Position numbers and translations under genes: made by a program. DNA of 64,000 nucleotides from Candidatus Omnitrophota bacterium. GTDB taxonomy: Bacteria; Omnitrophota; Gorgyraeia; Duberdicusellales; 4484-171. Positions 1,974-37,052 of this stretch are shown piece by piece. Within the stretch, counting starts at the first letter, position 1, and each line of letters begins with the position of its first letter. The notes beneath the pieces were generated by a model. The model was given only the letters and a program-made list of their open reading frames with translations, was not told the DNA's origin and searched no databases. The stretch covers positions 12,471 through 76,470 of the forward strand of contig JAFGQU010000022.1 of NCBI GenBank assembly GCA_016935525.1. The letters are read 5' to 3'.

Positions 1974-2678
1974 TTATTTTCCGCTCTTGATCTCATCGGA
2001 CAAAATGATCGCATCGGCGATCTCTTTCATCGGCACTCGTTTATCCATACTGGACTTACGGATTAAAGCGTAGGCCGCGTTTTCGGTCAGTTTCTGTTCG
2101 CGCATAAGGATACCTTTGGCTTTTTCTACTTTCTTGCGAGTTTCCAGCTCTTCCTGAATAATCTTCGATTTCACCATCAATTCGGTATTTTCAATAGCGA
2201 CCGCAGCCTGGTTAGCCACGGCACTTAAAAGGTCGATATCACTTTTGGTAAATTTGTACACATCGGTAGTATAACAATTGATCACTCCGATTAATTTTTT
2301 CTTTACCAGCATCGGTACACTGAGCATAGATACCAGGCCTTCACGACGGGCAAGCTGTTTTTCTTTATATTGCGGATCTTTAGCTACATCAAGAATGACC
2401 ATCGGTTTTTTTTCTTTCGCGACCAGCCCGACAATCCCTTCTCCCAGCTTGATACTGCGTTCTTTAAGATAGGCCTGGCTCATCGCCTGGGTCGCCCTGA
2501 TTTTCAATTCCTGTGTTTTTTCTTCAATCAGCCATAATGCGCAGATCTTCGCCCGCATTACGTTGGCGGTAAGGGTGACGATCAGTTTCAGTACATCTTC
2601 GAGATAAAGGTCGGAAGTGATCGCTTTACTGATCTTACTTAACGTCACAATATAGTCTTTATAGCTGGTTTTTGGCAT
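1974..2678 (-). CDS. GAF domain plus ANTAR RNA-binding antiterminator-type regulator
   Basis: N-terminal GAF-like region. C-terminal ELETRKKVEKAKGILMREQKLTENAAYALIRKSSMDKRVPMKEIADAIIL is a classic ANTAR helix pair (AmiR/NasR-like). Confidence 0.75.
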   Translation of the reverse strand: MPKTSYKDYIVTLSKISKAITSDLYLEDVLKLIVTLTANVMRAKICALWLIEEKTQELKIRATQAMSQAYLKERSIKLGEGIVGLVAKEKKPMVILDVAKDPQYKEKQLARREGLVSMLSVPMLVKKKLIGVINCYTTDVYKFTKSDIDLLSAVANQAAVAIENTELMVKSKIIQEELETRKKVEKAKGILMREQKLTENAAYALIRKSSMDKRVPMKEIADAIILSDEIKSGK

Positions 2679-16061: not shown

Positions 16062-19000
16062 TCAATCCGATACTTCGGTCAATCCTAATTTCTTGTCGAC
16101 ACCTTGCATTTCCAGGATCTTTTTATATTCTAACGGCATTATCTTTACGAATTTTTCCACACAATCGTTAAAATTATCCAATACTTTTTTGGCGACGGTA
16201 CTTTGAGTATATTTATAATGATTACTCACTAAAGAATGAATAAGTTGAGTATCATCCTCATGTAGGGTCTCAAATTTTACCATGCTCAGGTTACATTTTG
16301 CCCGGAAATCCTCTTCGGTATCCCATACATAAGCGATTCCTCCGCTCATTCCCGCGGCAAAGTTTCGCCCGGTACGTCCTAAGACCACTACCCGTCCCCC
16401 GGTCATATATTCACAGCCATGGTCGCCGACTCCTTCGACTACGGCATAGAGACCGGAATTACGAATACAAAACCGTTCGCCGGCAATCCCGCGGATATAG
16501 GCTTCGCCCGATATCGCTCCGTAAAAAGAAGTGTTTCCGATAATAATATTCTCCTGGGGAATATATTCGGCGTTACGGTCGGGATAGATGATGATTTTCC
16601 CGCCGGAGGTACCTTTGCCGACATAATCATTAGCCATGCCTTCTAATTCGAACGTGATCCCTTTCGCAAGCCAGGCTGCGAAACTCTGGCCGGCAATACC
16701 CCGGAATTTGATCTGGATCGTATCTTCCAGAAGCCCTTCTTCTCCGTAAAATCTACATACCTCACCGCTTAACATCGCTCCGGTAGTACGGTCGGTATTT
16801 TTAATCGATACTTCAAATTTTACCGGTTCGGAATTATTATTTAAAGTATACCGGCATAGATCGATAAGCTTTCGGTCAAGCACGCTGTCTATTCGGTGAT
16901 CCTGAGTACGTTGACAATAAGTGCCTACATCCGGCGGTACCTGCGGTTTATAGAGTATCCGCGAGAAATCGATCCGGGTCGCTTTCCAGGGCAGGATATT
17001 GGTATCGACTTCTAAAAGGTCGGTACGGCCGATAAGCTCATCGATCGTCCGTATTCCCAGAGAAGCCATGATCTCACGCAGTTCTTCAACAACAAAGTTA
17101 AAATAATTGACGATATGTTCCGGACGGCCCTGAAATTTTTTCTGCAAAAGATCATCCTGGGTCGCTATTCCTACCGAACAATTATTTAGATGACAATGCC
17201 GTAACATGACGCATCCCATTATAATCAATGTTGCGGTACAGAATCCGAATTCTTCGGCTCCCAGAATGGCAGCGATTGCGACATCTCTTCCGGTACGTAA
17301 TTGCCCGTCGGTCTGCAGGCGTACCCGTGACCGCAGGTCGTTTAAGACTAAGGTTTGATGCGTTTCCGATACCCCCAGTTCCCAGGGTAACCCGGCATGG
17401 CGGATAGAACTGACCGGAGACGCTCCGGTCCCGCCGTCTCCGCCGGAAATAAGGATCATATCGGAATGTCCTTTCGCTACGCCGGCGGCAATAGTGCCTA
17501 CTCCGATTTCCGAGACCAGTTTTACGCTGATCCGCGCGTGCGGATTGGTGTTTTTCAGATCAAAAATAAGTTGAGCCAGGTCTTCGATCGAGTAAATATC
17601 ATGATGCGGCGGCGGTGAGATTAAAGTGACCCCTGGTGTCGTGTATCTGGTTTTCGCGATGGTAGGCGATACTTTATGACCGGGCAGTTGTCCTCCTTCG
17701 CCCGGTTTCGCTCCTTGAGCGATCTTTATCTGCAATTCGTCGGCATTCGTAAGATAGTTTGTGGTTACTCCAAACCGGCCGGACGCGACCTGTTTTATCG
17801 CGCTGCGCCGAGAATCTCCGTTAGGATGAGGGATAAACCGTGCGGGGTCTTCGCCTCCTTCACCGGTATTTGATTTTCCACCGAGCTTATTCATGGCGAT
17901 TGCCAGGGTTTCATGGGCGCCCCGGGAAATAGAACCGAAACTCATCGCTCCGGTAGCGAACCGTTTAAAAATATCTTCTTTCGGTTCGACCTCATCGATA
18001 GGGATAGTCTCAGACCTCTTGAATTTCAGCAGACTGCGTAATGTCGTCGGCTGTGCCGATTGATCGTTGATCAGGCGGGCAAATTCCCGATATTTCTGAG
18101 GATCGTTTTTACGGGTAGCGTCCTGCAGGGCGGCGATACTGTGCGGGTTCCAGAGATGGAACTCTCCGTCCCGTTTCCACTGGTAAAGCCCTCCGGTATC
18201 CAAAAGTGCGTTATACCCTGAACGTTGTGGGTAAGCATTGTGGTGTCGAAGAATCGTCTCGCGCGCGATGATCTCGAAATCCACTCCGCCGATACGGGAT
18301 ACCGTACCGGTAAAACTCCTTTCGATCACTTCATCGGCAACGCCTAAGGCTTCGAATATCTGAGCCCCGCGATAACTCTGTAACGTAGATATACCCATTT
18401 TGGAAAGGACCTTTTTGATACCTTTATCTATCGCTTGTATATAATTTTTTTTGGCCGTCGGGATATCCAGTTCCAGCTCCCCTTCTCTCTCGAGATATTC
18501 GATCGATTCAAGAGCAAGATAGGGGTTTATTGCGCCGCACCCGTAACCGAAAAGTAACGCAAAATGGTGGACTTCCCGCGGTTCGGCGCTTTCTAAGATC
18601 AACGCGATCTGAGAACGGGAGGTTTTCCGTACCAGATGGTGGTGTACGGTCCCGATAGCCAGTAGTGCCGGTATGGCCGCGTGATCCTGGTTGAATCCGC
18701 GGTCACTTAACACGATAAACGTATATCCTTCTTTAATCGCCGCCTCGGATTCCCGGCAGATCGCGTCAAGACGTTTCATGAAATTATCGGAAGAATCGGC
18801 TTTAAACAGCAACGAAACCGTTTTGGTCTTAAATCCTTTCTCTTTAATATTTTTTATGAGAACAAGGTCTTCATCGGTAAGGATCGGGTGCGGCAGGTGG
18901 ACTCGCCGGGCATGAGCTTCGGTCTCATCGAGAAGATTGCGCCGTGAGCCCATAAAACATTCCAGGCTCATCACGATCTCTTCGCGGATCGGATCGATTG

Positions 19001-20591
19001 CCGGGTTGGTCACCTGCGCAAAAAGCTGTTTAAAATAGCTATACAATAATTGCGGTTTTTTAGAAAGTACGGCAAGCGGCGTATCGTTTCCCATCGAGCC
19101 GGTAGGTTCTAATCCGGTATGGGCCATCGGTTTGATGATCATCTTTAGATCTTCGCGCGTATAGCCGAAGGCTTTAAGCGAAGTCAAAGTTTTCTGTCCG
19201 TTTGCAGGCGGGGTTTCTTTCCTGGGAAGTTCACCCAGTTCTACTAAAGTGTTTTTAAGCCACTCGGCGTACGGTTTTTGGATAGAAACCGTTTCTTTCA
19301 CTTCCTGATCGTCTATGATACGACCTTCTTCGGTATCGACAAAAAACATTTTCCCCGGTTCCAGCCGGCCGGAAGAGATGATGTCACCGGCGGGAATATC
19401 GAGTACCCCTACCTCTGATGCCATTACTACCATATTGTGTGTAGTGATGATATACCGCGAAGGGCGCAGACCGTTACGGTCCAGGACCGCTCCGATCCTG
19501 GTCCCGTCAGTAAAAGCAATACTCGCCGGGCCGTCCCAGGGTTCCATTAAACAGGACATATATTTATGGAACGACCGGACCCGTTCATCAAGAAAGGTGT
19601 TCTGTTCCCAGGCCGAAGGGATAAGCATCATCATCGCGTGAGGAAGACTTCGTCCGGCCAATACCAACAGTTCCAACACCAGATCGATAGTCGCCGAATC
19701 GCTCAGTCCTGGAATAATGATCGGTTTTAGTTTTTCGATGTCCGGGCCGAACAACGGAGATGCTAAAAGCTGTTCTTTTGCGCTCATCCAGTTGATATTT
19801 CCCCGTAATGTGTTGATCTCACCGTTATGGGCGAGAAACCTGAACGGCTGGGCAAGGTCCCAGGTAGGAAACGTATTGGTACTGTAACGGGAATGGACCA
19901 GGGCAATCGAACTTTTAAGGTCGGGATCATTAAGGTCGACAAAAAAGCTCTGTAATTGATCGGGCATCAGAAGCCCTTTATAAGAGAACGTACGGCAGGA
20001 AAGGTTGGTGATATAGAAAAACGATTTTTGAGTTATGTTCGATGCAGCGACGGTTTTTTCTACCAGACGGCGGATCACGTACAGTTTTCGTTCGAACGCA
20101 AGCTGATCGGCAAGGTCCGGGGATCTTTGGATAAAAATCTGTTCGATGGCCGGTTGGGCCTTTTTTGCTCCTTTTCCGATATCGGTATTATTCACGGGAA
20201 CCTGCCGCCAGCCCAGTAACGTCTGTCCTTCTTCGCTCACGGTTTTGGCAAAAATATCTTTTAAGAGCTTTTTTTCCCGGGTATCCGTAGGTAAAAAGAT
20301 CAATCCGGTTCCGTAATCGCCATAATCCGGTAATTTGATGCGGGCGGTATCGGCTATTTTCCGGAAAAATTCGTGAGGAGTTTGGATGAGAATTCCCGCA
20401 CCGTCACCGGTCTTAGGGTCTGATCCTACCGCGCCGCGATGAGCCAGACGGTTTAAAACCCCTATTCCCTGCTGAACGAGAGCATAGGATTTTTCCCCCT
20501 TTATGTGACAGACAAATCCGACCCCGCAGGAATCTTTTTCAAATTGTGGGTCATATAAACCTTGTTTTTGAGGGAAATGAGTATATTCCAT
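16062..20591 (-). CDS. gltB: Glutamate synthase large subunit
   Basis: 1509 aa. N-terminal class II amidotransferase CGVGF. Central and FMN domains. C-terminal GXGXG domain. Confidence 0.95.
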   Translation of the reverse strand: MEYTHFPQKQGLYDPQFEKDSCGVGFVCHIKGEKSYALVQQGIGVLNRLAHRGAVGSDPKTGDGAGILIQTPHEFFRKIADTARIKLPDYGDYGTGLIFLPTDTREKKLLKDIFAKTVSEEGQTLLGWRQVPVNNTDIGKGAKKAQPAIEQIFIQRSPDLADQLAFERKLYVIRRLVEKTVAASNITQKSFFYITNLSCRTFSYKGLLMPDQLQSFFVDLNDPDLKSSIALVHSRYSTNTFPTWDLAQPFRFLAHNGEINTLRGNINWMSAKEQLLASPLFGPDIEKLKPIIIPGLSDSATIDLVLELLVLAGRSLPHAMMMLIPSAWEQNTFLDERVRSFHKYMSCLMEPWDGPASIAFTDGTRIGAVLDRNGLRPSRYIITTHNMVVMASEVGVLDIPAGDIISSGRLEPGKMFFVDTEEGRIIDDQEVKETVSIQKPYAEWLKNTLVELGELPRKETPPANGQKTLTSLKAFGYTREDLKMIIKPMAHTGLEPTGSMGNDTPLAVLSKKPQLLYSYFKQLFAQVTNPAIDPIREEIVMSLECFMGSRRNLLDETEAHARRVHLPHPILTDEDLVLIKNIKEKGFKTKTVSLLFKADSSDNFMKRLDAICRESEAAIKEGYTFIVLSDRGFNQDHAAIPALLAIGTVHHHLVRKTSRSQIALILESAEPREVHHFALLFGYGCGAINPYLALESIEYLEREGELELDIPTAKKNYIQAIDKGIKKVLSKMGISTLQSYRGAQIFEALGVADEVIERSFTGTVSRIGGVDFEIIARETILRHHNAYPQRSGYNALLDTGGLYQWKRDGEFHLWNPHSIAALQDATRKNDPQKYREFARLINDQSAQPTTLRSLLKFKRSETIPIDEVEPKEDIFKRFATGAMSFGSISRGAHETLAIAMNKLGGKSNTGEGGEDPARFIPHPNGDSRRSAIKQVASGRFGVTTNYLTNADELQIKIAQGAKPGEGGQLPGHKVSPTIAKTRYTTPGVTLISPPPHHDIYSIEDLAQLIFDLKNTNPHARISVKLVSEIGVGTIAAGVAKGHSDMILISGGDGGTGASPVSSIRHAGLPWELGVSETHQTLVLNDLRSRVRLQTDGQLRTGRDVAIAAILGAEEFGFCTATLIIMGCVMLRHCHLNNCSVGIATQDDLLQKKFQGRPEHIVNYFNFVVEELREIMASLGIRTIDELIGRTDLLEVDTNILPWKATRIDFSRILYKPQVPPDVGTYCQRTQDHRIDSVLDRKLIDLCRYTLNNNSEPVKFEVSIKNTDRTTGAMLSGEVCRFYGEEGLLEDTIQIKFRGIAGQSFAAWLAKGITFELEGMANDYVGKGTSGGKIIIYPDRNAEYIPQENIIIGNTSFYGAISGEAYIRGIAGERFCIRNSGLYAVVEGVGDHGCEYMTGGRVVVLGRTGRNFAAGMSGGIAYVWDTEEDFRAKCNLSMVKFETLHEDDTQLIHSLVSNHYKYTQSTVAKKVLDNFNDCVEKFVKIMPLEYKKILEMQGVDKKLGLTEVSD

Positions 20592-20875: not shown

Positions 20876-20994
20876 TGTATCAGGATGATTGTTTTTACCC
20901 GAACGATTTTTCGATATTTTCTGTCATAGGATGCCTTATTTTTAGGCAAAAAAGAGCAAAATTTTTTCCGTACCGGCTTTACTTTAAAAATGGA

Positions 20995-21699
20995 CTATTG
21001 AACCGGTATGTTTTTATTGATCAAACGGGCGAAATTAAGAAAAATCCGTTGCGCGGCCAGGTTATATGTATCTTCGATATCGTGAGCCCGCAGGACCATC
21101 TGAGTACAATACGAGTTGTTCCAACGGTCCCGGTGAACATATTCTTTTATCCATTCGACGATCATTTTTGGTTTGATCTCCACATGAAACTGTAACGCAT
21201 AGGCGTTTCCGATACGGAACGCCTGATCACAGATAGCCGATGTCGCCAGTAATTGGCTTCCCGGAGGGATAGTGAACGTATCGTGATGCCATTGGAACAC
21301 TTCCATATTTTCGCCTATTCCTTCGAATAAAGGATCGGTTAAGCCTTCCGGCGTGAAATCTATAGTATGCCAGCCGATTTCTTCGGATGAGGCTCGCGTC
21401 ACTATTGCTCCGGATGCTTTCGCAATCAGTTGGGCTCCCAGGCAAATTCCTAATACGGGGATTTTCTGCGTCAGGATATCTTGGATAAAACTATTCTCTT
21501 TTGCCAGAAAAGGGAATTTTTTCTCTTCATAGACGTTCATCGAGCCGCCCAGGATCACTACCGCATCGGCATCGGCTGGATCCGGTAGTGAATCCCCGGC
21601 GTAAAGACGAATAGTTTGAACCGGCAGTTTCCCTGATTGAAAGAAATCCAGAAGTAATCCCGGTCCTTCGATATCAATATGCTGTAGAAAATAGATCAT
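20995..21699 (-). CDS. Class I glutamine amidotransferase (GATase1), stand-alone
   Basis: VVILGGSMNVYEE...IPVLGICLGAQL catalytic-Cys context. HxE at the C-terminus (QFHVE). Confidence 0.75.
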   Translation of the reverse strand: MIYFLQHIDIEGPGLLLDFFQSGKLPVQTIRLYAGDSLPDPADADAVVILGGSMNVYEEKKFPFLAKENSFIQDILTQKIPVLGICLGAQLIAKASGAIVTRASSEEIGWHTIDFTPEGLTDPLFEGIGENMEVFQWHHDTFTIPPGSQLLATSAICDQAFRIGNAYALQFHVEIKPKMIVEWIKEYVHRDRWNNSYCTQMVLRAHDIEDTYNLAAQRIFLNFARLINKNIPVQ

Positions 21700-23823: not shown

Positions 23824-23945
23824 GGTAACCTCCTTTTTCTTCATCGGGTTTGACTTACATAATAAGAAACGTTCCCTAACCCTTATCGTCAGAGAACGCC
23901 TTTGTTCTTTTTCTGCCTATTTTTCGGGCACTTCGTTGTACTAAA

Positions 23946-25934: not shown

Positions 25935-26276
25935 TTATCCGATTGCTTTGGAACCGGTCTCTCCGGTACGGATCCGGATACACTCGCCTAAATCGATTAC
26001 AAATATCTTCCCGTCACCGATATTTCCCGTACGGGCGCCTTTGATAATGGCATCAATAGTAGGTTGAATAAAATGCTCATTGACCGCGATTTCTAAACGG
26101 ACCTTCTTTAAGAGATTTACTTCATGGATTACTCCGCGATAGGTCTCGGTAAACCCTTTCTGCTGCCCGCAGCCAAGAGCATTGGTAACCGTCATTTTAT
26201 AGACCTCGGCCTCATAAAGGGCTTTTTTTACGTCGGGGAGTTTATGCGGTTGAATCATCGCGACTATAAGTTTCAT
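25935..26276 (-). CDS. glnK: P-II nitrogen regulatory protein (second copy)
   Basis: About 90% identical to the 23984..24325 product. Confidence 0.9.
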
Positions 26277-28571: not shown

Positions 28572-28630
28572 CAAAAAAAAACGTTTCACTGCACCCCACC
28601 CGGTGTAATGAAACGTCTTTGTTTTTTTAC
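28572..28630. terminator. Bidirectional rho-independent terminator (after the sigma-factor gene, in the leader of the porin-amt operon)
   Basis: AAAAAAAAACGTTTCA...(20-nt loop)...TGAAACGTCTTTGTTTTTTT. A-run on one side and T-run on the other. A second hairpin CACAGTAAA-caatcgtta-TTTACTGTG sits at 28643-28669. Confidence 0.6.
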
Positions 28631-28676
28631 CACTTTGTATACACAGTAAACAATCGTTATTTACTGTGCGTTCAAC

Positions 28677-28709
28677 TATACAAGTAACTGATTACCCGCT
28701 TTGGTAACC
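28677..28709 (-). promoter_or_regulatory. Conserved 33-nt motif (copy 2): TATACAAGTAA-N12-TTACC-N6-GGTAACC, upstream of the porin-amt-glnK operon
   Basis: tatacaagtaactgattacccgctttggtaacc, with perfect palindrome TTACC-cgcttt-GGTAA. Matches the copy upstream of glnN. Confidence 0.35.
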
Positions 28710-28710: not shown

Positions 28711-29244
28711 TTAACTCAATAAAAGTTCGTGAGCTATATACGCGTACTTATGTTTGATCTTTTTGCCCGTCTTTACTACCATTACATGAGAGATTCCCAG
28801 AGTTTCTCCGATTTCCCGGGTAGTAAATCCGTCTAACTGCATCATAAAGATGTTCCGTTCCCGTACAGTAAGTACAGGCGTGATCTCGCCTAACAGCAGA
28901 TGAGCGTCGATCCAATGAACGGGAAATCCGTCATTCCTGTCCGGTATTTTCTTGTTCAGCGAGTCATGCCCGGTATGTTCAGATTCGGCATCCAGGCTTA
29001 ATGAGACCTTATCCAGAGATCTATACGTTTTCCGAATATAGTTTTTCAGAAAATAATAGCAGTTTTGCAAAATATAACTGTCGGTCTTATTGTTCCAGAA
29101 CCCGGTCATGTTTTGTTCCCAAAGGTGGGTAGAAGCTTCCTGATAGAGATCCTGTTCGTCAAAATAGGTATACCGATTATTGAGTTTATGCGTGATTGCT
29201 TTTAATTTAGGATTCAGTTTGACTATTAATTCTTCGAACTTCAT
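28711..29244 (-). CDS. Sigma-70 family (ECF-like) RNA polymerase sigma factor
   Basis: C-terminal region-4 HTH LTVRERNIFMMQLDGFTTREIGETLGISHVMVVKTGKKI. N-terminal region-2-like segment. RBS AAGGAGG. Confidence 0.55.
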   Translation of the reverse strand: MKFEELIVKLNPKLKAITHKLNNRYTYFDEQDLYQEASTHLWEQNMTGFWNNKTDSYILQNCYYFLKNYIRKTYRSLDKVSLSLDAESEHTGHDSLNKKIPDRNDGFPVHWIDAHLLLGEITPVLTVRERNIFMMQLDGFTTREIGETLGISHVMVVKTGKKIKHKYAYIAHELLLS

Positions 29245-29333
29245 AGGTACCTCCTTAAAAAATAAAAACCCTCATCAAGCTGTCATCGCTTAATGAGGGC
29301 GTCGTTGCCGCTTTTGGAGTTTTCCGGGGCCGT

Positions 29334-29364
29334 AAAAAAGAAAAACCCCAAATTACTTTGGGGC
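29334..29364 (-). terminator. Rho-independent terminator after 29432..30541
   Basis: Minus strand: CCCCAAA-gtaa-TTTGGGG followed by TTTTTCTTTTTT. Confidence 0.65.
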
Positions 29365-29431
29365 ATCTTTGCCTAAACCCGTTTCTACCTACATTGTAGA
29401 AACTATTCTTGTATTAAAGATACCATTAATC

Positions 29432-30541
29432 TCAGGACATGTCAAGTATTTTTTCGGCAATCGCCAGCGCCGCCGTAAGTCCCGGCGATTCAATACCGAT
29501 AAGGTTAATAAACCCGGGAAAACCCTGGTCCGACTCTTCTTTTATCACAAAATCCCTGAAATCCTCGTGTTCAGCCTGTAATTTGGGCCTGATCCCGGCA
29601 GTATCACCGATAAGCTCCGCTATGGTCACCTCCGGCAGGAACTTCTTTATTTCCTCGTAAAACCGCTGTTTTTGGCCGATATCGACGGTATAATCGATTT
29701 CCCGGCAATAATAGGAATCCGGCCCTACCCGCAATCCTCCGGCCATATCGGGAGTAATATGGATACCCAGTGAAACACCTGTCGCCGGCGGATAAATAAG
29801 ACGAGCTATTGAATATTTTTGCGGATTACCAAGACGGAAATATTGCCCTTTACAATAGTGGATCTTGTAATGATTTCGTTCAATATCTATCCCTGCTAAA
29901 GAAGCTATGTTATCGCTGTGAAGGCCGCCGCAATTTATGATTTTTTCTGCCTGGAAAGCGAATTCTGTTCCTTGCGGCTCTTTTACAGTCACGGTATAAC
30001 CGGAAGACTCTTTCCGGATACGGACCACTTCGGTAGAAAATGAAAATACGACACCACGATCGAGCGCGGTTTGATAAAGAAACTGCATGTATGAATGAGA
30101 ATCGATGATCCCCGATTCCGGCGAAAATAACGCGGTGCGGGCATTCACATCCGGCGCATACGAGGAGATTTCTTTTCTACTAAGATACCGTAACGTGGTG
30201 ATCCCGCACTGGATGACATTTTGGAAAATATCTTCGATTTTCGCTTCTTCGGCCCGGTCGGCGGCAATGATGAGTTTACCGGTTTTCCGGTAAGGGATAC
30301 GGTTCTTTTTACACAATTGGTAAAGAAGTTCTTTACCGCGGACGCAGCAAGTAAGTTTCAGCGACCCCGGACGATAATATAACCCGGCATGGATGACCTC
30401 CGAATTACGCGAACTGGTTTCCTGACCGAAAGAAGCGTTTTCCTCAATAACCACTATAGAGGTATTTTCTTCAGCTAGTTTCGCAGCACAACTTAACCCG
30501 ATAATACCCGCTCCGATAATGACAGTATCGACTTTTTCCAT
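29432..30541 (-). CDS. lhgO: FAD-dependent oxidoreductase, L-2-hydroxyglutarate oxidase/dehydrogenase (LhgO) family
   Basis: N-terminal TVIIGAGIIGLS dinucleotide fold. SEVIHAGLYYRPGSLK and GQYFRL motifs, collinear with E. coli LhgO. Confidence 0.75.
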   Translation of the reverse strand: MEKVDTVIIGAGIIGLSCAAKLAEENTSIVVIEENASFGQETSSRNSEVIHAGLYYRPGSLKLTCCVRGKELLYQLCKKNRIPYRKTGKLIIAADRAEEAKIEDIFQNVIQCGITTLRYLSRKEISSYAPDVNARTALFSPESGIIDSHSYMQFLYQTALDRGVVFSFSTEVVRIRKESSGYTVTVKEPQGTEFAFQAEKIINCGGLHSDNIASLAGIDIERNHYKIHYCKGQYFRLGNPQKYSIARLIYPPATGVSLGIHITPDMAGGLRVGPDSYYCREIDYTVDIGQKQRFYEEIKKFLPEVTIAELIGDTAGIRPKLQAEHEDFRDFVIKEESDQGFPGFINLIGIESPGLTAALAIAEKILDMS

Positions 30542-30631: not shown

Positions 30632-32272
30632 TTATGATTTCAATATTGTTTTGGCGATCTCGTCGTTCTTATCGGCGATAAACGTAATTCCCGTCTCTTT
30701 TGCCGTTTCCCGGTTTGCCGCATAGATATCGTCCCGAGAGATCTCTTTTAACGAGAATTTCCGTGCCCCGGCCATCAATTGTTGCAATCCGGCAGCAAGC
30801 TTATCGGCTAATGTCCAGGCAGCGATAGCTCCGCAGGGAATATTTTTCATCTCATCTTTACCGACTTTTTTCTGGACATCATAATAACCGGCAAAGATCT
30901 CATCGGGAGTCGTCCCGAATTCGGTCACACTCGACGGCAATTTATCCCAGTTCCCGTTGAGTTTCTCTCTTTTTTCGGGACTTACTACCCCTTCGATATT
31001 TGACCCTAAAAATCCCGGAATCATCAGCGACCGGCCCATACAGACCAGTTTGGTAAATGGAGCGCCTAACGCTAACGCTTTAAAGATCTGGTCTTCTCTC
31101 GCCAACCCTCCGGCAAACGCCATGTCCACGACTTTTTCTCCTTTATCGGCAAGAAGTTTTGCGTATTCATAGGCTTTAGAGTGTAACACTACCGATGGGA
31201 CTCCCCAACTTTCCATCATGTTCCAAGGGCTCATTCCCGTCCCTCCGCCGGAACCGTCGATAGTGAGCAGGTCGAGTTGAGCCTGAGTTGCGTATTTGAT
31301 CGACATGGCTAACGCTTCCATACCGTAAGAACCGGTTTTAAGCGATATGCGTTTATACCCTAATTTCCGCAGGTATTCCACCGATTTCATGAAATTTTCC
31401 CGCACGGAATCACGGGATGCGAGGCTGGTATACCCCAGGCGGCTATGCCGGGCAAAGGAACGGATCGCTTTATGATTGAACGCTTCCTGTACCTCTTTAC
31501 GGGTCGGATCAGGATCGACCACGTATCCTCTTTCTTTAAGAAACAGGGCATAATCGAGGCTGGTCACCTGGATTTCTCCGCCGATATCTTTTGCGCCCTG
31601 GCCCCATTTAAGTTCGATAATGACTTTATCTCCGTATTTCTCAATTACGTATTCGGCGACACCGTTACGGGTATCTTCGACATTAAGCTGGACGATAATC
31701 GCGCCGTAACCGTCGTGATATTTCAAAAATATGTCGATACGACGGTCGAGTTCCGGAGCTTTAATGATCTTCCCTTTTTTGATTTCTGAGGATTTATCGA
31801 CACCGACCACGTTTTCTCCGATTACAATCGGATATCCTACCAATGCCGCGCCGATTGCGAATGAATCCCAATATTTCGCGGCAATAAATGTCGATCCTAG
31901 TGCTCCGGTCATCACCGGTACCCGAAACTTGGTTTTCATCTTCGCTCCGAATTCTCCTCCAAGATGTACATTAGGGAAAATACAATCGTCTTCTGATTCG
32001 GTCAGCCCTTTGGGCAGGCCTTTTGCGCCATAATTGTATCCGTCAATACGTAAAGAATTATAAGAAACGCCTACGTGACTGGTATTAGAACTTCCGGCCG
32101 TAACGGTTCCGAAATCACGCGGGTAAAGGACTTTTCTTCCCTGTAAACTGGATAACCAGGTTTCGCATTTACCTTTACAATCGGCACGGCAAAGAGTACA
32201 AAGACCTGATTCCGCCGGATTGCCCCGGTTGATCGTCCCAAGGGCGTCATTACTTTTGGGCCATTGAATCAT
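30632..32272 (-). CDS. Glutamate synthase-related FMN-binding domain protein (archaeal-type GltB subunit-2-like, stand-alone)
   Basis: 546 aa. N-terminal Cys cluster CTLCRADCKGKCE. FMN/Fe-S glutamate-synthase central-domain pattern (GSGGGTGMSP..., LVCMGRSL). Confidence 0.7.
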   Translation of the reverse strand: MIQWPKSNDALGTINRGNPAESGLCTLCRADCKGKCETWLSSLQGRKVLYPRDFGTVTAGSSNTSHVGVSYNSLRIDGYNYGAKGLPKGLTESEDDCIFPNVHLGGEFGAKMKTKFRVPVMTGALGSTFIAAKYWDSFAIGAALVGYPIVIGENVVGVDKSSEIKKGKIIKAPELDRRIDIFLKYHDGYGAIIVQLNVEDTRNGVAEYVIEKYGDKVIIELKWGQGAKDIGGEIQVTSLDYALFLKERGYVVDPDPTRKEVQEAFNHKAIRSFARHSRLGYTSLASRDSVRENFMKSVEYLRKLGYKRISLKTGSYGMEALAMSIKYATQAQLDLLTIDGSGGGTGMSPWNMMESWGVPSVVLHSKAYEYAKLLADKGEKVVDMAFAGGLAREDQIFKALALGAPFTKLVCMGRSLMIPGFLGSNIEGVVSPEKREKLNGNWDKLPSSVTEFGTTPDEIFAGYYDVQKKVGKDEMKNIPCGAIAAWTLADKLAAGLQQLMAGARKFSLKEISRDDIYAANRETAKETGITFIADKNDEIAKTILKS

Positions 32273-32327
32273 AACAACCTCCTCTTCTTGTATGGGTAAT
32301 AATTATGCGTATTTTGCCTGTATTTCA

Positions 32328-32377
32328 GGCATCCGTAAAAAATAAAAAACGTCCTTCCTCCTGAAAGAAAGGACGTC
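32328..32377 (-). terminator. Rho-independent terminator after the gltD/nfnB-like gene and its 3' repeat array
   Basis: ACGTCCTT-cctcctgaaaga-AAGGACGT with a long A-run on the + strand (U-run on the transcript). Confidence 0.55.
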
Positions 32378-32461
32378 GTTGTCCTATTGATTTACTATAT
32401 CAATATCGTTTATGCTGTCAAGGGGATTATTAAACAGCGGATAGCGTAGAGCGATTAGCGG

Positions 32462-32600
32462 ACAGATGGAAAATCCCGATCAAATCCAAAGCGCTAAATT
32501 CAAAAAAGGTATTCGCTTTCCCCATTAGGATTTCGGATTTAGAATTTTGGATTTTTAAGCCTGTGACGTGTGACCTTATGTCTATGTGACCTATTTCTTC
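32462..32600. repeat. Composite repeat element: AAATCC x2-3, GGATTT x3, TGTGAC x3 (3' of gltD/nfnB-like gene)
   Basis: aaatcccgatcaaatccaaagcgctaaattc...ggatttcggatttagaattttggattttt, then tgtgacgtgtgaccttatgtctatgtgacc. Its reverse complement has the same module order as 36793..37052. Confidence 0.8.
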
Positions 32601-34003
32601 AGATATTCAAGGATAGCTCGAGCCGCTTTCTTTGCCATACCCATCGCTTCGATGACCGTGCCTTCGCCACCGACGATATCTCCTCCGGCATACACCCCCG
32701 GAATCGATGTCTGCATACTGTCCGGGTCGACCGTAATATCACCGTGGGTATCGGTAGATAATTCCGGAGTGACCCGTAACAGGACTTGATTGGCTTTTAG
32801 GCCTACGGCCAGAATCGCTCCTTCACAGGGTATTTCAAACTCACTGCCGGCGATGGCCAGGGGCCGACGTCTTCCTGATGAATCTGGTACACCCAATTCG
32901 CACCGTTGACAGATCGCTTTTTCAATATACCCTTGGCTCCCTTTGAATGCGACCGGTTGCGTGAGGAATTCGAACTGGATGCCTTCTTCACGGGCATGAT
33001 GGATCTCAAGCCGGCGTGCCGGCATTTCTATTTCGGTACGGCGATAAAGGATCTTTACTGACGGAGCATACCCGGCAATGGATTGTAACCGTAATGCGAC
33101 TCTTGCCGCATCCATAGCGGTATTGCCTCCGCCGATTACGACCATCTGTTTTCCTATATTTACCGGAGTCGCGTAGTGAGGGAATTTGTAGGCATTCATA
33201 AGGTTCACCCGGGTAAGGAATTCATTTGCCGAATACACATTACAGAGATTTTCACCGGGGATACCTAAAAATGTCGGAACACCGGCCCCTAATCCTAAAA
33301 AGATCGCCGAATACCCTTCATCCCACAGGTCGGGAATAGTTTTAATTTGACCGATGATGGAATCAGTGATGATCTCTACTCCCAGTTTTTTTATATACTC
33401 TATCTCTACGTCAAGTATGTCGACCGGCAGACGAAACGGCGGTATCCCGTAACACAATACCCCGCCGGCACGGTGAAGACTTTCAAATACAGTCACCTGT
33501 ACTCCCTGGCGGGCTAATTCTCCGGCACAACATAATCCGGCAGGGCCGGAACCGACTACGGCGACTTTACATCTCTTTAGATGTTCTTGTTGCCGGATGG
33601 GGACATCTATGGTGTTTTTTATTCCGTAATCTCCGAGGAACCGTTCCAAAAAATGGATATTGATCGCGTTCTTTGACGCAAACGGTTCTCCTTTTTTTGT
33701 GAGTACGCACGCCCGGCGACATTGATATTCAGCCGGGCATACCCGGCCGCAGATAGACGGGAAATTGTTTTTTTGACGGATAGTCAAATACGCCTGAGCA
33801 TACTCTTTACGGGTAATCTGGAATATGAATTTTTTAATATCGATTCCTACCGGGCACCCTTCGCTACAGGTGGGGTTTTTACATTGAAGACAACGGGCGG
33901 CTTCAGCTAAAGCTTCTTCTTCGGTGTAGAGGCCGACTACTTCGTTGAAATCTTTTATCCGTTGCTGAGGGGCAATCTCTTGTGGGTGTATAGTTTCTTT
34001 CAT
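32591..34003 (-). CDS. GltD-family NADPH-dependent oxidoreductase (NfnB / SudA / 'homotetrameric GltA'-like)
   Basis: Two [4Fe-4S]-type Cys clusters (CLQCKNPTCSEGCP, CGRVCPAEYQCRRAC). Two GxGxxG folds (VVGSGPAGL, VVIGGGNTAMD). About 470 aa. Start set at MKETIH (alternative: 34045). Confidence 0.8.
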   Translation of the reverse strand: MKETIHPQEIAPQQRIKDFNEVVGLYTEEEALAEAARCLQCKNPTCSEGCPVGIDIKKFIFQITRKEYAQAYLTIRQKNNFPSICGRVCPAEYQCRRACVLTKKGEPFASKNAINIHFLERFLGDYGIKNTIDVPIRQQEHLKRCKVAVVGSGPAGLCCAGELARQGVQVTVFESLHRAGGVLCYGIPPFRLPVDILDVEIEYIKKLGVEIITDSIIGQIKTIPDLWDEGYSAIFLGLGAGVPTFLGIPGENLCNVYSANEFLTRVNLMNAYKFPHYATPVNIGKQMVVIGGGNTAMDAARVALRLQSIAGYAPSVKILYRRTEIEMPARRLEIHHAREEGIQFEFLTQPVAFKGSQGYIEKAICQRCELGVPDSSGRRRPLAIAGSEFEIPCEGAILAVGLKANQVLLRVTPELSTDTHGDITVDPDSMQTSIPGVYAGGDIVGGEGTVIEAMGMAKKAARAILEYLKK

Positions 34004-34028
34004 ATTACTAATATAAATGTTCAATGTA

Positions 34029-34106
34029 AAATTAGCATTTAGCAATTAGCAATGTGAAATTCGGAAATTCTCTTATTTCTTCCATTGCTAAATGAAAATT
34101 GCTAAT
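34029..34106. repeat. Inverted array of direct repeats (TTAGCA x3, then TGCTAA x2-3) between the nfnA-like and nfnB-like genes
   Basis: aaattagcatttagcaattagcaatg...cattgctaaatgaaaattgctaattg. Confidence 0.75.
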
Positions 34107-34125
34107 TGATCATTGATAATTTTTC

Positions 34126-34998
34126 TTACTCTATACGCTTACCGCTATCCGCTATTCGCTGTAAATTACAGATATGTTTCTCTTTTTTTTCGTACATCTT
34201 ACTGCGCTGGAAGAGTTCGTCCCAATCGACCAAGTGGGCATCGAATTCCGGCCCGTCAATACATGCGAATTTTGTTTCTTTATCTACCGTGACCCGGCAA
34301 CATCCGCACATGCCGGTCGCATCGACCATAAGCGCGTTAAGCGAGACTATAGTCTTGAGTGAATATCTTTCGGTAATCTCGGTGACTTTTTTCATCATCG
34401 CAACCGGCCCGACCGCATAGGCTAGATGGTAAGGAGTATTGTTATGGTTTTTCTCAAGAAGACGAAGAAGGACATCGGTCACCAATCCTTTCTCTCCTGT
34501 GGAGCCGTCATCGGTCGTGGCAAAAAACTCATCGGATAGGCCTTGAAGTTCTTTTCTTAAAATAAACAGGTCTTGACTACGTGCTCCGATAATAGTAGTG
34601 ATCTGATTCCCGATGTGTTTTAAAGCCCGGGTTACCGGATATACCTCGGCAATCCCTACTCCTCCCCCGATAATGAGTATCCTCCCGAATTTCTTGATCT
34701 GGGTAGGGGTCCCTAAAGGGCCGGCAAGGCTGAATACCGTTTCCCCGATACCCAGTTCTCCCAGTTTTCCCGTAGAATATCCGGCGTGTTGAAAAATAAG
34801 AGTGATCGTCCCGGTTTCTTTATCGCTCTCCACTATGGTCAACGGGATCCGTTCGCCGGTCGCGGTGGGAATCACTACTACGAATTGTCCGGGGCGGGCT
34901 TTTTGGGCGATAAGCGGAGCAATGATACGCAATTGAGTGATTCGCAGGGGATCTTTCCGGATGAGTTCTTTTTTATCGATAATCTTCATCAGTATCAA
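34126..34998 (-). CDS. PyrK-like FAD/NAD(P)-binding, [2Fe-2S] electron-transfer subunit (NfnA / SudB-like)
   Basis: FNR-like fold. C-terminal MCGCCRV...C cluster typical of PyrK/NfnA. About 285 aa. Confidence 0.75.
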   Translation of the reverse strand: MILMKIIDKKELIRKDPLRITQLRIIAPLIAQKARPGQFVVVIPTATGERIPLTIVESDKETGTITLIFQHAGYSTGKLGELGIGETVFSLAGPLGTPTQIKKFGRILIIGGGVGIAEVYPVTRALKHIGNQITTIIGARSQDLFILRKELQGLSDEFFATTDDGSTGEKGLVTDVLLRLLEKNHNNTPYHLAYAVGPVAMMKKVTEITERYSLKTIVSLNALMVDATGMCGCCRVTVDKETKFACIDGPEFDAHLVDWDELFQRSKMYEKKEKHICNLQRIADSGKRIE

Positions 34999-35483
34999 AA
35001 CGATGTGGTGAAAAACCTATCCATACCCGACAAAATGCCTTTTGTCGTCAACGTCACAATAATACCGGCGATCATGATGCCGATAATGATTCCGCACAAT
35101 GCTTTCGCAAACCGGAATTTAAGCAGGGCGGCGACCAGGGTCCCGGTCCAGGCTCCGGTCGTAGGGAAAGGTATGGCGACAAACATGACCAGCCCGATAA
35201 ACCCGTAGGTACGGACAAAATCTGATTTTAATTCGATCCGTCGGTTCCACCAGTGGAAAAACCTTCCGGCGAGAGGTACGTTTTGCAATACATCGAACAT
35301 AACCTTATAAAAGAAAAACAGAGGGATTACCGGCAGGATATTACCGAAAATTGACAACCAGTAACTTTCCAGAGTTGAGATCCCTTGCGCTAACGCATAG
35401 GGGATAGCACCTCTCAATTCAAGAATGGGAGACGCCGCGATAAGAATAGTGATAAGTTTAGTTTCCGGGAGCATATTTACCAA
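34995..35483 (-). CDS. Small polytopic membrane protein (COG2426-like, 'small multidrug export'-type), function uncertain
   Basis: 162 aa, 4-5 hydrophobic segments. Overlaps neighbouring genes by a few nt. Confidence 0.4.
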   Translation of the reverse strand: MVNMLPETKLITILIAASPILELRGAIPYALAQGISTLESYWLSIFGNILPVIPLFFFYKVMFDVLQNVPLAGRFFHWWNRRIELKSDFVRTYGFIGLVMFVAIPFPTTGAWTGTLVAALLKFRFAKALCGIIIGIMIAGIIVTLTTKGILSGMDRFFTTSF

Positions 35484-36792: not shown

Positions 36793-37052
36793 TAGGTCAC
36801 ATGTCACATAGTCCCACGACACACGTTACTTTGACTTTATTCGGATACGGTTAGATTTCAATCACCAATAACCAAGATATATCTTTTAAATCCTAAATTC
36901 TAACCCCTAAATCCTAAACAAATTCGAAATGGGGAAAATCCAAAACAATACCACTGAGACCAAAAATCAAAAATATATCAATATTTTGGGTTTGGGATGT
37001 ATGATTTAGGATTTGCTTAGAGCCTAGGATTTTGGATTTAGGATTTAAACTG
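36793..37052. repeat. Composite repeat element: GTCACA x2-3, AAATCCTAA x3-4, spacer, TTAGGATTT x4
   Basis: ggtcacatgtcacatagtc...taaatcctaaattctaacccctaaatcctaaac...ggaaaatccaaaac...gatttaggatttgcttagagcctaggattttggatttaggattt. Same modules as 32462..32600 in opposite orientation. Confidence 0.8.

What the first reader, a model, noticed from the sequence alone, without database searches (positions are those of the whole stretch)
30632..34998. Second, archaeal-type glutamate-synthase FMN subunit clustered with an NfnA/NfnB-like (PyrK-like plus GltD-like) pair
Besides the canonical gltBD, the window encodes a stand-alone 546-aa FMN/Fe-S GltS central-domain protein with an N-terminal Cys cluster. 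It is separated by a repeat element and terminator-like hairpin from a GltD-family protein with two 4Fe-4S clusters and a PyrK-like [2Fe-2S] flavoprotein.

That trio could form an alternative glutamate synthase or 2-oxoglutarate-reductive-amination complex driven by ferredoxin/NAD(P)H (Nfn-type bifurcation), or a sulfide-dehydrogenase-like enzyme. The lack of separate amidotransferase and GXGXG domains means the glutamine-hydrolysing part would have to come from elsewhere. The stand-alone GATase1 at 20995..21699 is a candidate.
Basis: partly seen in the sequence, partly recalled or inferred. Interest (0 to 1): 0.55.

Follow-up and report, generated by a model that had tools for sequence, protein, structure and literature searches.

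The report
Nitrogen-switched glutamate-synthase-like flavoprotein beside ordinary NfnAB
The three genes are real but form two separate units: an ordinary NfnAB redox enzyme, and next to it a very highly conserved, uncharacterised iron-sulfur flavoprotein related to glutamate synthase that appears to be switched on with the cell's nitrogen-assimilation genes and could be an unrecognised way for anaerobes to assimilate ammonium.

Summary
The three ORFs, the N-terminal Cys cluster, the repeat and the hairpin are all present as described.

**The downstream pair is ordinary.** 32591..34998 is a standard nfnA-nfnB pair. It matches T. maritima NfnAB and P. furiosus NfnI end to end, and it forms the tail of a housekeeping operon.

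**The 546-aa protein is not an archaeal-type GltB.**
- It belongs to a compact, distinct branch of the glutamate-synthase FMN-domain superfamily.
- It is 72-86% identical across many anaerobic phyla.
- It has an invariant CX2CX3CX3C motif and lacks the canonical 3Fe-4S site.

**The terminator-like hairpin belongs to this gene's own leader.** A conserved promoter-like element is followed by an ANTAR-type hexaloop hairpin that overlaps an intrinsic terminator.
- A covariance model of this leader type puts 32 of its 35 hits in 81 genomes just upstream of this gene.
- In the window, its three best hits are the leaders of glnN, of porin-amt-PII, and of this gene.
- The matching GAF-ANTAR regulator is encoded at 1974..2678.

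**Context elsewhere.** The gene's neighbours are GAF-ANTAR, NrpR, glnA, gdh or split GOGAT. NfnAB adjacency occurs only in Omnitrophota.

**Verdict.** The "trio complex" idea is not supported. A nitrogen-regulated, glutaminase-less, probably ferredoxin-driven glutamate-synthase-like enzyme is the best reading, but its function is inferred, not shown.

The parts
34126..34998 (-). nfnA-like gene (PyrK-like FAD/[2Fe-2S] subunit); probable true start ATG 34989
   Evidence: PRK06222 gives 360 bits against a cutoff of 220. P. furiosus NfnI-S (5jca_S) matches at 4e-80 and T. maritima NfnA (4ylf_A) at 2e-70. The motif VDxTGMCGxCRV...FAC(I/V)DGPEF is conserved. The start lies within a few bases of the upstream gene 34995..35483.
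32591..34045 (-). nfnB-like gene (GltD-like subunit with two [4Fe-4S] clusters, FAD and an NADPH site); probable true start ATG 34003
   Evidence: TIGR01316 gives 497.5 bits against a cutoff of 471.75. PF14691 and PF07992 are present. T. maritima NfnB (4ylf_B) matches at 2.8e-134 over residues 22-482 and 5jca_L at 8e-126; GltD chains give only about 238 bits.
32470..32560 (.).
   Evidence: TRF finds period 7 at 32525-32554, with similar arrays at 36887-36918 and 37025-37047. The fold of 32430-32592 is no more stable than shuffled sequence (z = +0.8).
32394..32421 (-). Sigma-70-type promoter-like element (TTGACA, 16 nt, TG-n-TATAGT) for the FMN gene
   Evidence: It matches 11 of 12 consensus positions and has an extended -10. 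CTTGACA and the -10-like ATTGaTAtAnT keep the same spacing in the leaders of WIN, L086, L087 and L010.
32370..32385 (-). ANTAR-type hexaloop hairpin P2 (AGGAC-AACGAC-GTCCT; loop has A at position 1 and G at position 4); its 3' arm is also the 5' arm of the terminator
   Evidence: Found. It is invariant as AGGACAAnGnCGTCCT in four Omnitrophota leaders. The covariance model scores 17.8 bits, E = 0.016, the third-best hit in the window. The motif definition comes from PMC3369931.
32335..32377 (-). Intrinsic terminator (13-bp stem plus T-run): the attenuator of the FMN gene leader
   Evidence: -29.1 kcal/mol, z = -3.6. The terminator arms co-vary among WIN, L086, L087 and L010. Equivalent terminators lie 50-100 nt upstream of the gene in L001 and L005.
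32315..32331 (.). Palindrome or hairpin TGCCTGTATTTCAGGCA between the terminator and the ribosome-binding site
   Evidence: The same motif sits at 20932-20948 and, with one mismatch, at 23914-23930, and upstream of the gene in L007, L009, L011, L015 and L016. The two arms co-vary.
30632..32272 (-). Stand-alone Fe-S/FMN protein of a distinct branch of the glutamate-synthase FMN-domain superfamily (546 aa; CX2CX3CX3C at residues 25-36)
29432..30541 (-). DAO-family FAD oxidoreductase (L-2-hydroxyglutarate oxidase/dehydrogenase-like), probably co-transcribed with the FMN gene
   Evidence: PF01266 scores 213 bits. PRK11728 LhgO scores 236 bits, below its cutoff of 299. Structure matches are 3dme_A at 8e-70 and 8w75_D at 7.5e-42. 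The scan found no terminator in the 90-nt gap. The gene holds the same position in L086 and L087.
23894..23943 (-). ANTAR dual-hairpin leader of the glnN (type III GS)-GATase1 operon, in the same regulon
   Evidence: The covariance model scores 28.2 bits, E = 5.5e-5, the best hit in the window. The sequence is shown and the GS type III domains.
28611..28666 (-). ANTAR-type leader (P2 AAAC-AAAGAC-GTTT overlapping a terminator) of the porin-amt-PII-amt-PII operon
   Evidence: The covariance model scores 20.7 bits, E = 0.0033. The sequence is shown. The gene assignments come; the PII gene at 25935..26276 was not scanned and is called PII only from its size and position.
1974..2678 (-). GAF-ANTAR regulator gene, the candidate antiterminator for these leaders
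   Evidence: E = 5e-95 against an HMM built from the GAF-ANTAR genes that neighbour the FMN gene in other genomes. Pfam finds GAF and ANTAR domains.

Best explanation
Two functionally separate units lie side by side.

[quoted passage not shown] It is transcribed as the tail of a housekeeping operon (glycosyltransferase, pcm, small exporter, nfnA, nfnB).

**(2) 30632..32272 encodes a stand-alone Fe-S/FMN protein.** It comes from a distinct, extremely conserved branch of the glutamate-synthase FMN ('synthase') domain superfamily.
- The gene has its own promoter-like element.
- Its leader carries an ANTAR-type hexaloop hairpin that shares one strand with an intrinsic terminator. The 'terminator' is therefore a conditional attenuator.
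- By default transcription stops about 45 nt after it starts.
- When the GAF-ANTAR protein (gene at 1974..2678) is active, presumably under nitrogen limitation, it holds the small hairpin. The terminator then cannot form, and the FMN gene and the DAO-family gene behind it are transcribed.
- The glnN and amt/PII operons carry the same type of leader and would be switched on together.

**Proposed chemistry (inferred, not shown).** Electrons from a low-potential donor such as ferredoxin enter through a cluster bound by the N-terminal CX2CX3CX3C motif and reduce FMN. FMNH2 then reduces 2-iminoglutarate, formed from 2-oxoglutarate and free ammonia, to L-glutamate. No glutaminase domain and no ATP are needed.

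**The NfnAB adjacency** is lineage-specific synteny in Omnitrophota, not a complex.
For: **NfnAB identity.**. Nfn genes are known to sit in many different gene clusters (PMC6405883).

**Operon position.** nfnA starts within a few bases of the upstream gene. Gene order is the same in L087 and L088.

**Own leader.**
- A promoter-like site matches 11 of 12 consensus positions.
- It is followed by the hairpin AGGAC-AACGAC-GTCCT, which overlaps the terminator.
- The promoter boxes and the hexaloop hairpin are invariant in WIN, L086, L087 and L010, while the terminator arms co-vary.

**ANTAR link.**
- The motif is defined as hexaloops with A at position 1 and G at position 4, with P2 overlapping the terminator (PMC3369931).
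- Covariance model R1, built from other genomes, ranks the glnN, porin-amt and FMN leaders as the top three hits in the window.
- Across 81 loci, 32 of its 35 hits lie just upstream of the FMN gene. Ten of these are in loci not used to train the model.
- A GAF-ANTAR gene is the commonest upstream neighbour (13 loci). Its orthologue is in the window.
- In relative L087 the order is FMN, DAO, glnA, GAF-ANTAR.

**Nitrogen context elsewhere.** NrpR is divergently placed in 7 loci, GDH is nearby in 6, GlnA in 4 and split GOGAT in 4.

**Enzyme family.**
- PF01645 is the only Pfam hit.
- hhalign against an archaeal-type GltB gives 98% probability over residues 63-421. The GE(N/G), VQ, KxGQGAK, DGxGGGTGxSP and GG..ED..KALALGA stretches line up.
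- The model is an FMN TIM barrel with pLDDT 85.5.
- The Cys4 motif is invariant.
- The gene is monocistronic or has variable partners.
Against: **The leader is incomplete in this clade.**
- In the window and its closest relatives only one hexaloop hairpin (P2) follows the predicted promoter. The P1 hairpin that EutV requires is absent or degenerate.
- The covariance-model score is marginal (17.8 bits, E = 0.016).

**No direct evidence exists for substrate, electron donor or cofactors.**
- Similarity to the window's own canonical GltB is limited to one 41-column stretch.
- Free-ammonia use by GltS alpha subunits is poor (my recollection).

**A functional link to NfnAB is not excluded.** The order nfnA-nfnB-FMN is kept across Omnitrophota that have diverged to 52-55% NfnA identity.

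**Some RNA evidence is partly circular.** The sequences used to build the covariance model were selected for forming hairpins, so the pair statistics are circular in part.
Confidence: 0.62

Rival explanations
1. The FMN protein, NfnB-like and NfnA-like proteins assemble into one alternative glutamate synthase. NfnAB acts as the NAD(P)H/ferredoxin electron-input module, much as GltD feeds GltB.
For: NfnB is homologous to GltD. The three genes are adjacent and on the same strand. The order nfnA-nfnB-FMN is kept in L010, L011, L015, L016, L086 and L087 despite 52-67% Nfn identity. In L023 a GltD-like protein (32% identical to NfnB) also precedes the gene.
Against: The pair scores as NfnAB, not GltD. 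It belongs to a housekeeping operon, and in L011, L015 and L016 it follows genes that look by eye like hydG and hydF. A conserved promoter and a regulated terminator separate it from the FMN gene in every Omnitrophota locus examined. No NfnAB adjacency occurs outside Omnitrophota among 81 loci. The FMN protein is far more conserved than its supposed partners (78-80% against 52-67%).
Confidence: 0.1
2. The FMN protein is nitrogen-regulated but does not make glutamate. It would act on another 2-oxo, 2-hydroxy or imino acid, or on an amine. One option is oxidative release of ammonia from a scavenged nitrogen compound, with electrons passed to ferredoxin. Another is a 2-oxoglutarate/2-hydroxyglutarate interconversion linked to the adjacent LhgO-like enzyme.
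Against: The QGAK, GE(N/G) and GGTG stretches characteristic of the GltS synthase site line up. The recurrent neighbours are glnA, gdh and GOGAT, all of which handle glutamate, glutamine or 2-oxoglutarate. The DAO partner is restricted to a small clade.
Confidence: 0.22
3. The hairpin at 32348-32377 is simply the terminator of the nfnAB operon. The ANTAR-like hexaloop and the promoter-like site are coincidental, and the FMN gene is expressed constitutively from some other start.
For: No other convincing terminator follows nfnB. The window leader lacks a clear P1 and scores only E = 0.016.
Against: The hexaloop hairpin and promoter boxes are invariant in four genomes while flanking sequence varies. 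The same hairpin-plus-terminator arrangement precedes the gene where the upstream gene is gdh, glnA or ANTAR and not nfnB. The predicted promoter lies upstream of the hairpin, not downstream.
Confidence: 0.06

Closest known systems
[quoted passage not shown]
   Same: Both subunits align over their full length. Domain content and Fe-S ligand motifs match, the gene order is nfnA then nfnB, and both NCBIfam models are passed.
   Different: Nothing notable. There is a spacer of about 120 nt between nfnA and nfnB that contains heptamer repeats. Activity was not tested.
Glutamate synthase alpha-subunit FMN ('synthase') domain, and the archaeal-type split GltB (Fer4 + PF01645, about 500 aa)
   Same: FMN TIM barrel. 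The motif stretches KxGQGAK, DGxGGGTGxSP and GG..ED..KALALGA line up. hhalign gives 98% probability against an archaeal-type GltB. The genomic context is nitrogen assimilation.
   Different: - No amidotransferase, central or GXGXG domains, and no genes for them nearby.
- No Fer4 domain.
- The canonical C-terminal Cys triad for the 3Fe-4S cluster is absent and is replaced by an N-terminal CX2CX3CX3C motif.
- Two large insertions are present (about residues 155-185 and 255-290).
- phmmer finds no GltS structure, and a family profile reaches them only at E = 0.014.
ANTAR antitermination leaders (EutV/eutP, NasR/nasF, AmiR; Ramesh et al. 2012, PMC3369931)
   Same: A hexaloop hairpin with A at position 1 and G at position 4 shares its 3' arm with an intrinsic terminator. 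An ANTAR protein is encoded in the genome. The target genes concern nitrogen metabolism. ANTAR motifs upstream of 'glutamate synthase genes' have already been reported in Desulfotomaculum reducens.
   Different: The regulator is a one-component GAF-ANTAR protein, a type uncharacterised as of that 2012 paper. In the window's clade the leader seems to keep only P2, with the promoter lying where P1 sits in other genomes.
FMN-dependent TIM-barrel oxidoreductases: type-2 IPP isomerase, alpha-hydroxyacid oxidases, IMPDH/GMPR
   Different: Sequence identity is only 12-16%. None has a Cys4 metal site or a nitrogen-regulated context. The Pfam and hhalign signal points to the GltS family.

Membership tests
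NfnAB (Nfn-type transhydrogenase) | Large subunit has an N-terminal two-[4Fe-4S] domain plus an FAD/NADPH-binding GltD-like fold, and scores above the curated model cutoff | tested here: met
   PF14691 and PF07992 are present. TIGR01316 scores 497.5 bits against a cutoff of 471.75. The CLQC..C..GCPV and CGRVCP.E.QC motifs align with 4ylf_B.
NfnAB (Nfn-type transhydrogenase) | Closer to characterised NfnB/NfnI-L than to GltD, DPD or other paralogues | tested here: met
   451.7, 423.8 and 408.3 bits to 4ylf_B, 5jca_L and 5vj7_A, against 238 bits to GltD chains and 167 bits to DPD. No tree was built.
NfnAB (Nfn-type transhydrogenase) | Small subunit is PyrK-like with FAD and a [2Fe-2S] site (Asp plus three Cys), encoded directly upstream | tested here: met
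   PRK06222 scores 360 bits against a cutoff of 220. The motif VDATGMCGCCRV...FACIDGPEF aligns with VDGTGMCGACRV...FACVDGPEF of 5jca_S and 4ylf_A. The identity of the ligand residues is from memory.
NfnAB (Nfn-type transhydrogenase) | Electron-bifurcating NADH/ferredoxin:NADP+ activity | not testable with these tools
   Requires enzymology. The P. furiosus paralogue NfnII/Xfn shows that close homologues can differ in activity (PMC6405883).
Glutamate synthase FMN ('synthase') domain superfamily (PF01645) | Significant match to PF01645 and homology across the barrel | tested here: met
   PF01645 scores 56.8 bits (cutoff 20.4) but covers only profile positions 189-302 of 369. hhalign against an archaeal-type GltB gives 98% probability, E = 2.5e-13, over 298 columns.
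Glutamate synthase FMN ('synthase') domain superfamily (PF01645) | Synthase-site motifs (GEGG, QGAK, DGGTGASP) | tested here: met
   GENV, KWGQGAK and DGSGGGTGMSP line up and are conserved within the family. The roles of individual residues are from memory.
Canonical or ferredoxin-dependent glutamate synthase (GltB / GlsF) | Amidotransferase, central and GXGXG domains in the same protein or in adjacent genes | tested here: not met
   No such Pfam hits in the protein or its neighbours. The window's true gltB at 16062..20591 has them all (PRK11750, 1801 bits).
Canonical or ferredoxin-dependent glutamate synthase (GltB / GlsF) | [3Fe-4S] cluster bound by a Cys triad late in the FMN domain | tested here: not met
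   No conserved Cys triad lies after the ALGA motif; only C411 is there, and it is not conserved in distant members. The conserved cysteines are C25, C28, C32 and C36. The motif position is from memory.
Archaeal-type split GltB (Fer4 + PF01645) | N-terminal 2x[4Fe-4S] ferredoxin domain, encoded with GATase_2 and GXGXG subunits | tested here: not met
   No Fer4 family hit. In L001 a complete split GOGAT with its own 500-aa Fer4 + PF01645 subunit lies beside the 546-aa gene, so the two are distinct proteins.
ANTAR-controlled antitermination leader | P2 hairpin with a hexaloop (A at position 1, G at position 4) overlapping the 5' arm of an intrinsic terminator | tested here: met
   AGGAC-AACGAC-GTCCT at 32385..32370 overlaps the terminator at 32377..32348. 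It is invariant in related leaders.
ANTAR-controlled antitermination leader | Upstream P1 hexaloop hairpin (the dual-hairpin substrate) | tested here: inconclusive
   P1 is clear in the glnN leader and in many other genomes. In the window's FMN leader the covariance model has to force a P1 with a 17-nt insertion, and the promoter-like boxes occupy that position.
ANTAR-controlled antitermination leader | An ANTAR-domain protein encoded in the same genome | tested here: met
   GAF-ANTAR gene at 1974..2678.
ANTAR-controlled antitermination leader | Protein-dependent read-through of the terminator | not testable with these tools
   Requires a reporter or in vitro transcription assay.

The most novel reading that the evidence does not exclude
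The 546-aa family would be a so-far unrecognised ammonium-assimilation enzyme of anaerobes. It would be a stand-alone, glutaminase-less, ATP-independent, ferredoxin-driven 'glutamate synthase'. It would reductively aminate 2-oxoglutarate with free ammonia, using a relocated N-terminal Fe-S cluster and FMN. It would be induced under nitrogen limitation through ANTAR or NrpR control. This would be a third route alongside GDH and GS-GOGAT.
Probability: 0.3. Interest if true: 0.8.

Novelty: new variant of a known kind. Interest (0 to 1): 0.55.

Why it matters
NfnAB here is routine. The neighbouring protein is more interesting.

- **Conservation and spread.** It is 72-86% identical across Omnitrophota, Clostridia, Desulfobacterota, Elusimicrobia, spirochaetes and other lineages.
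- **Nitrogen control.** In many of these genomes it carries an ANTAR-type leader or sits beside NrpR, glnA or gdh.
- **No known function.** The family has no specific NCBIfam model. I found no experimental work on it in the library searched.

If it makes glutamate from 2-oxoglutarate and ammonia with ferredoxin electrons, anaerobes would have an ATP-free, high-driving-force route for nitrogen assimilation. Genome-based metabolic models currently miss or mislabel such a route.

It is directly testable, because cultured species carry the gene: Sporomusa ovata, Moorella mulderi, Clostridium intestinale, Desulfatibacillum alkenivorans and Pelotomaculum propionicicum.

The window also gives a compact example of a GAF-ANTAR nitrogen regulon in Omnitrophota, a phylum with very few cultured members.

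Tried and rejected
- **Rfam.** No family reached its gathering score anywhere in the window. In the spacer only sub-threshold PyrR and PyrG-leader hits appeared (E = 0.45 and 1.7). I considered a pyrG-like reiterative-transcription leader and dropped it once the ANTAR pattern emerged.
- **Sequence search of solved structures.** phmmer with the FMN protein found only de novo TIM barrels, which are spurious repeats. A family profile reached GltS only at E = 0.014.
- **Related loci.** The search for related loci with the diverse alignment A1 failed. It worked with the closer alignment A2.
- **The repeat element as a structured RNA.** Rejected: its fold is no better than shuffled sequence.
- **A P1 hairpin in the window leader.** The only candidate is an AT-rich heptaloop hairpin, and it overlaps the conserved -10-like box.
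- **The GATase1 at 20995..21699 as a glutaminase partner.** I found no recurrent association.
- **A consistent co-transcribed partner of the FMN gene across genomes.** None found. Partners include an IclR-type regulator, a NadE-like protein and others, judged by eye.
- **Literature.** Eight searches found no characterisation of this subfamily.
- **AFDB fold search.** The afdb50 library was unavailable.

Full report
**Observation**

- **The 546-aa product of 30632..32272.** It matches only PF01645 (glutamate synthase FMN domain, 56.8 bits), and only over residues 292-408. No NCBIfam model matches it.
- **The 484-aa product of 32591..34045.** It carries the two-[4Fe-4S] domain PF14691 and a pyridine-nucleotide oxidoreductase fold. 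It passes TIGR01316.
- **The 290-aa product of 34126..34998.** It is PyrK-like (PF10418, PF00175) and passes PRK06222.
- **The 318-nt spacer.** It contains a 7-nt tandem array. It also contains a 13-bp hairpin with a T-run at 32348-32377, which is far more stable than shuffled sequence.

The window comes from a Candidatus Omnitrophica/Omnitrophota metagenome-assembled genome, because the protein is 100% identical to P0001.

**The NfnAB pair is ordinary**

- The large subunit aligns end to end with T. maritima NfnB (4ylf_B, 2.8e-134) and P. furiosus NfnI-L (8e-126). Glutamate synthase small subunits score about half as much.
- The small subunit aligns with NfnI-S and T. maritima NfnA, and the cluster motif VDxTGMCGxCRV...FAC(I/V)DGPEF is conserved.
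- nfnA begins within a few bases of the preceding gene, a small exporter, which itself follows pcm and a glycosyltransferase. The same order is found in a relative (L087).
- In other Omnitrophota the pair instead follows genes that look by eye like hydG and hydF.
- Nfn genes are known to sit in many different clusters (PMC6405883).

**The FMN protein is a distinct and remarkably conserved family**

- More than 8000 database proteins match it. The best 120 are 79-100% identical and come mostly from Omnitrophota, with some from Clostridia.
- In species-representative genomes it is 72-83% identical in many lineages. These include Moorella mulderi, Sporomusa ovata, Clostridium intestinale, Pelotomaculum propionicicum, Desulfatibacillum alkenivorans, Syntrophus, Elusimicrobia, spirochaete lineages, Thermodesulfovibrio and Margulisbacteria.
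- Among 1.84 billion 50%-identity cluster representatives, only 878 match at E <= 1e-3. Few of these are full-length and divergent (29-51% identity), so canonical GltB proteins are essentially not reached.
- C25, C28 and C36 are invariant and C32 nearly so, giving CX2CX3CX3C.
- Against an archaeal-type GltB, hhalign gives 98% probability over residues 63-421. The GE(N/G), VQ, KxGQGAK, DGxGGGTGxSP and GG..ED..KALALGA stretches line up, and there are two large insertions.
- Against the window's own GltB only a 41-column stretch aligns.
- No Cys triad exists where, from memory, GltS binds its 3Fe-4S cluster.
- The AlphaFold model (pLDDT 85.5) is an FMN TIM barrel. Foldseek gives GltS the best query coverage (TM 0.44-0.46), with E-values similar to those of the alpha-hydroxyacid oxidases.

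So the superfamily assignment is sound, but 'archaeal-type GltB' is not. The chemistry remains inferred.

**Genomic context in other genomes points to nitrogen, not Nfn**

I called ORFs in 81 public loci plus the window and clustered the neighbours. I then annotated the recurrent clusters.

| Neighbour | Occurrence |
|---|---|
| GAF-ANTAR protein, directly upstream, same strand | 13 loci |
| NrpR homologue, divergent | 7 loci |
| Glutamate dehydrogenase, within four genes | 6 loci |
| Glutamine synthetase | 4 loci |
| Split GOGAT cluster with its own FMN subunit | 4 loci |

- In a Clostridia contig the gene lies 275 nt after glnA, beside a complete split GOGAT.
- In Omnitrophota genome CP070807 it lies 304 nt after gdh.
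- NfnB-type and NfnA-type genes precede it only in the window and in the Omnitrophota loci L010, L011, L015 and L016, and in the close relatives L086 and L087.
- Those Omnitrophota are diverged. Relative to the window, the FMN protein is 78-80% identical, NfnB 62-67% and NfnA 52-55%. The synteny is therefore old within the phylum, but phylum-specific.

**The hairpin is a regulated attenuator**

On the coding strand the order is:
1. nfnB stop codon
2. heptamer repeats
3. a near-consensus promoter (TTGACA, 16 nt, TG-n-TATAGT; 11 of 12 matches)
4. a small hairpin AGGAC-AACGAC-GTCCT
5. the terminator, whose 5' arm is the 3' arm of that small hairpin
6. a 17-nt palindrome
7. ribosome-binding site and ATG

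A hexaloop with A at position 1 and G at position 4, overlapping a terminator, is the published signature of ANTAR substrates (PMC3369931). Many homologous leaders show the full dual-hairpin form, CAC-AAYGGC-GTG ... GAC-AAAGRC-GTC, followed by a terminator.

I built a covariance model from 22 such leaders from other genomes.
- **In the window.** Its three best hits are the glnN leader (28.2 bits, E = 5.5e-5), the porin-amt leader (20.7 bits, E = 0.0033) and the FMN leader (17.8 bits, E = 0.016).
- **Across 1.02 Mb of loci.** 32 of 35 hits fall just upstream of the FMN gene, and ten of these are in loci not used for training.
- **Pair statistics.** They show many compensatory changes, but the training sequences were chosen for forming hairpins, so this is partly circular.
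- **The regulator.** The window encodes the orthologous GAF-ANTAR protein at 1974..2678.
- **Related leaders.** An alignment of the WIN, L086, L087 and L010 leaders shows invariant promoter boxes, an invariant hexaloop hairpin and co-varying terminator arms.

One caveat applies. In this clade the promoter sits where P1 sits elsewhere, so the transcript seems to carry only P2.

**The window is a nitrogen island**

Reading along the minus strand:
- [leader] FMN gene, then a DAO-family LhgO-like gene
- sigma-like factor
- [leader] TorF-like porin, amt, PII, amt, PII (the PII at 25935..26276 is inferred from its size and position only)
- [leader] glnN (type III GS), then class-I GATase
- small HTH protein, then gltB, then gltD

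In relative L087 the FMN-DAO pair is followed directly by glnA and GAF-ANTAR.

**Mechanism**

Shown here:
- The nfnAB pair and the FMN gene are separate units.
- The promoter-hairpin-terminator architecture is conserved.
- The leader type, the ANTAR gene and nitrogen genes are associated.

Inferred:
- The GAF-ANTAR protein prevents termination under nitrogen limitation.
- The enzyme binds FMN and a Cys4 Fe-S cluster.
- It takes electrons from ferredoxin and reduces 2-iminoglutarate, made from 2-oxoglutarate and free ammonia, to glutamate.

**Novelty and verdict**

ANTAR control of 'glutamate synthase genes' has been noted before, and the protein is already annotated generically in databases. 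I found no characterisation of this subfamily.

- The trio-complex interpretation is not supported.
- The nitrogen link is supported.
- I rate the finding as a new variant of a known kind, of moderate to good interest because of the family's extreme conservation and direct testability.

Noticed in passing
window 23894-23943 (-) and 28611-28666 (-): ANTAR-type leaders, each with a hexaloop hairpin overlapping a terminator. They precede glnN-GATase1 and the porin-amt-PII-amt-PII operon. Together with the FMN gene they make a compact GAF-ANTAR nitrogen regulon in an Omnitrophota genome.
   Followed up: partly
window 23946-23978 (-) and 28677-28709 (-): An identical 33-nt module, GGTTACCAAAnCGG-N8-TTACTTGTATA, lies in both the glnN and the porin-amt leaders. 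Two matches were found where 0.00 are expected by chance. It could be a promoter or an operator, perhaps for the sigma-like factor at 28711..29244.
   Followed up: partly
window 32315-32331, 20932-20948, 23914-23930; L007, L009, L011, L015, L016 about 50-100 nt upstream of the FMN gene: The palindrome TGCCT-N7-AGGCA recurs in nitrogen-gene leaders: 6 matches with at most one mismatch, against 0.97 expected. Its two arms co-vary among related leaders, which suggests an RNA hairpin between the terminator and the ribosome-binding site, or else an operator.
   Followed up: partly
window 29362-29401 (-): A borderline ANTAR-like hit (15.2 bits, E = 0.066) followed by terminator-like hairpins at 29364..29345 and 29300..29268. 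It lies upstream of the sigma-70/LuxR-like gene 28711..29244.
   Followed up: no
window 29432-30541 (-); L086 4028-5167; L087 6726-7844: A DAO-family gene resembling L-2-hydroxyglutarate oxidase/dehydrogenase follows the FMN gene in this clade only. In L087 it is followed by glnA and GAF-ANTAR. This hints at 2-oxoglutarate/2-hydroxyglutarate chemistry or metabolite repair.
   Followed up: partly
window 32470-32560, 36880-37050, 34022-34160: Arrays of AAATCC-type heptamers in direct and inverted orientation lie in several intergenic spacers, including the roughly 120-nt gap between nfnA and nfnB. They look like a small genome-specific REP-like repeat family.
   Followed up: partly
L006-L085: The FMN protein keeps 72-83% identity across unrelated phyla, while the neighbouring NfnA is only 52-55% identical even within Omnitrophota. 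This means either extreme purifying selection or frequent horizontal transfer. The two were not distinguished.
   Followed up: no
window about 20617-20880 (-): A small ORF ending in a Fis-type helix-turn-helix sequence (…KAAKMLGINRNTLHTKIEKYRID…) sits between the class-I GATase and gltB. It was read by eye from the sequence and not scanned against any library.
   Followed up: no
window 12012-14222 (-): A pair of genes for a radical SAM protein and a linked 'DNA modification/repair' protein (TIGR03916 and TIGR03915) lies just downstream of gltD.
   Followed up: no
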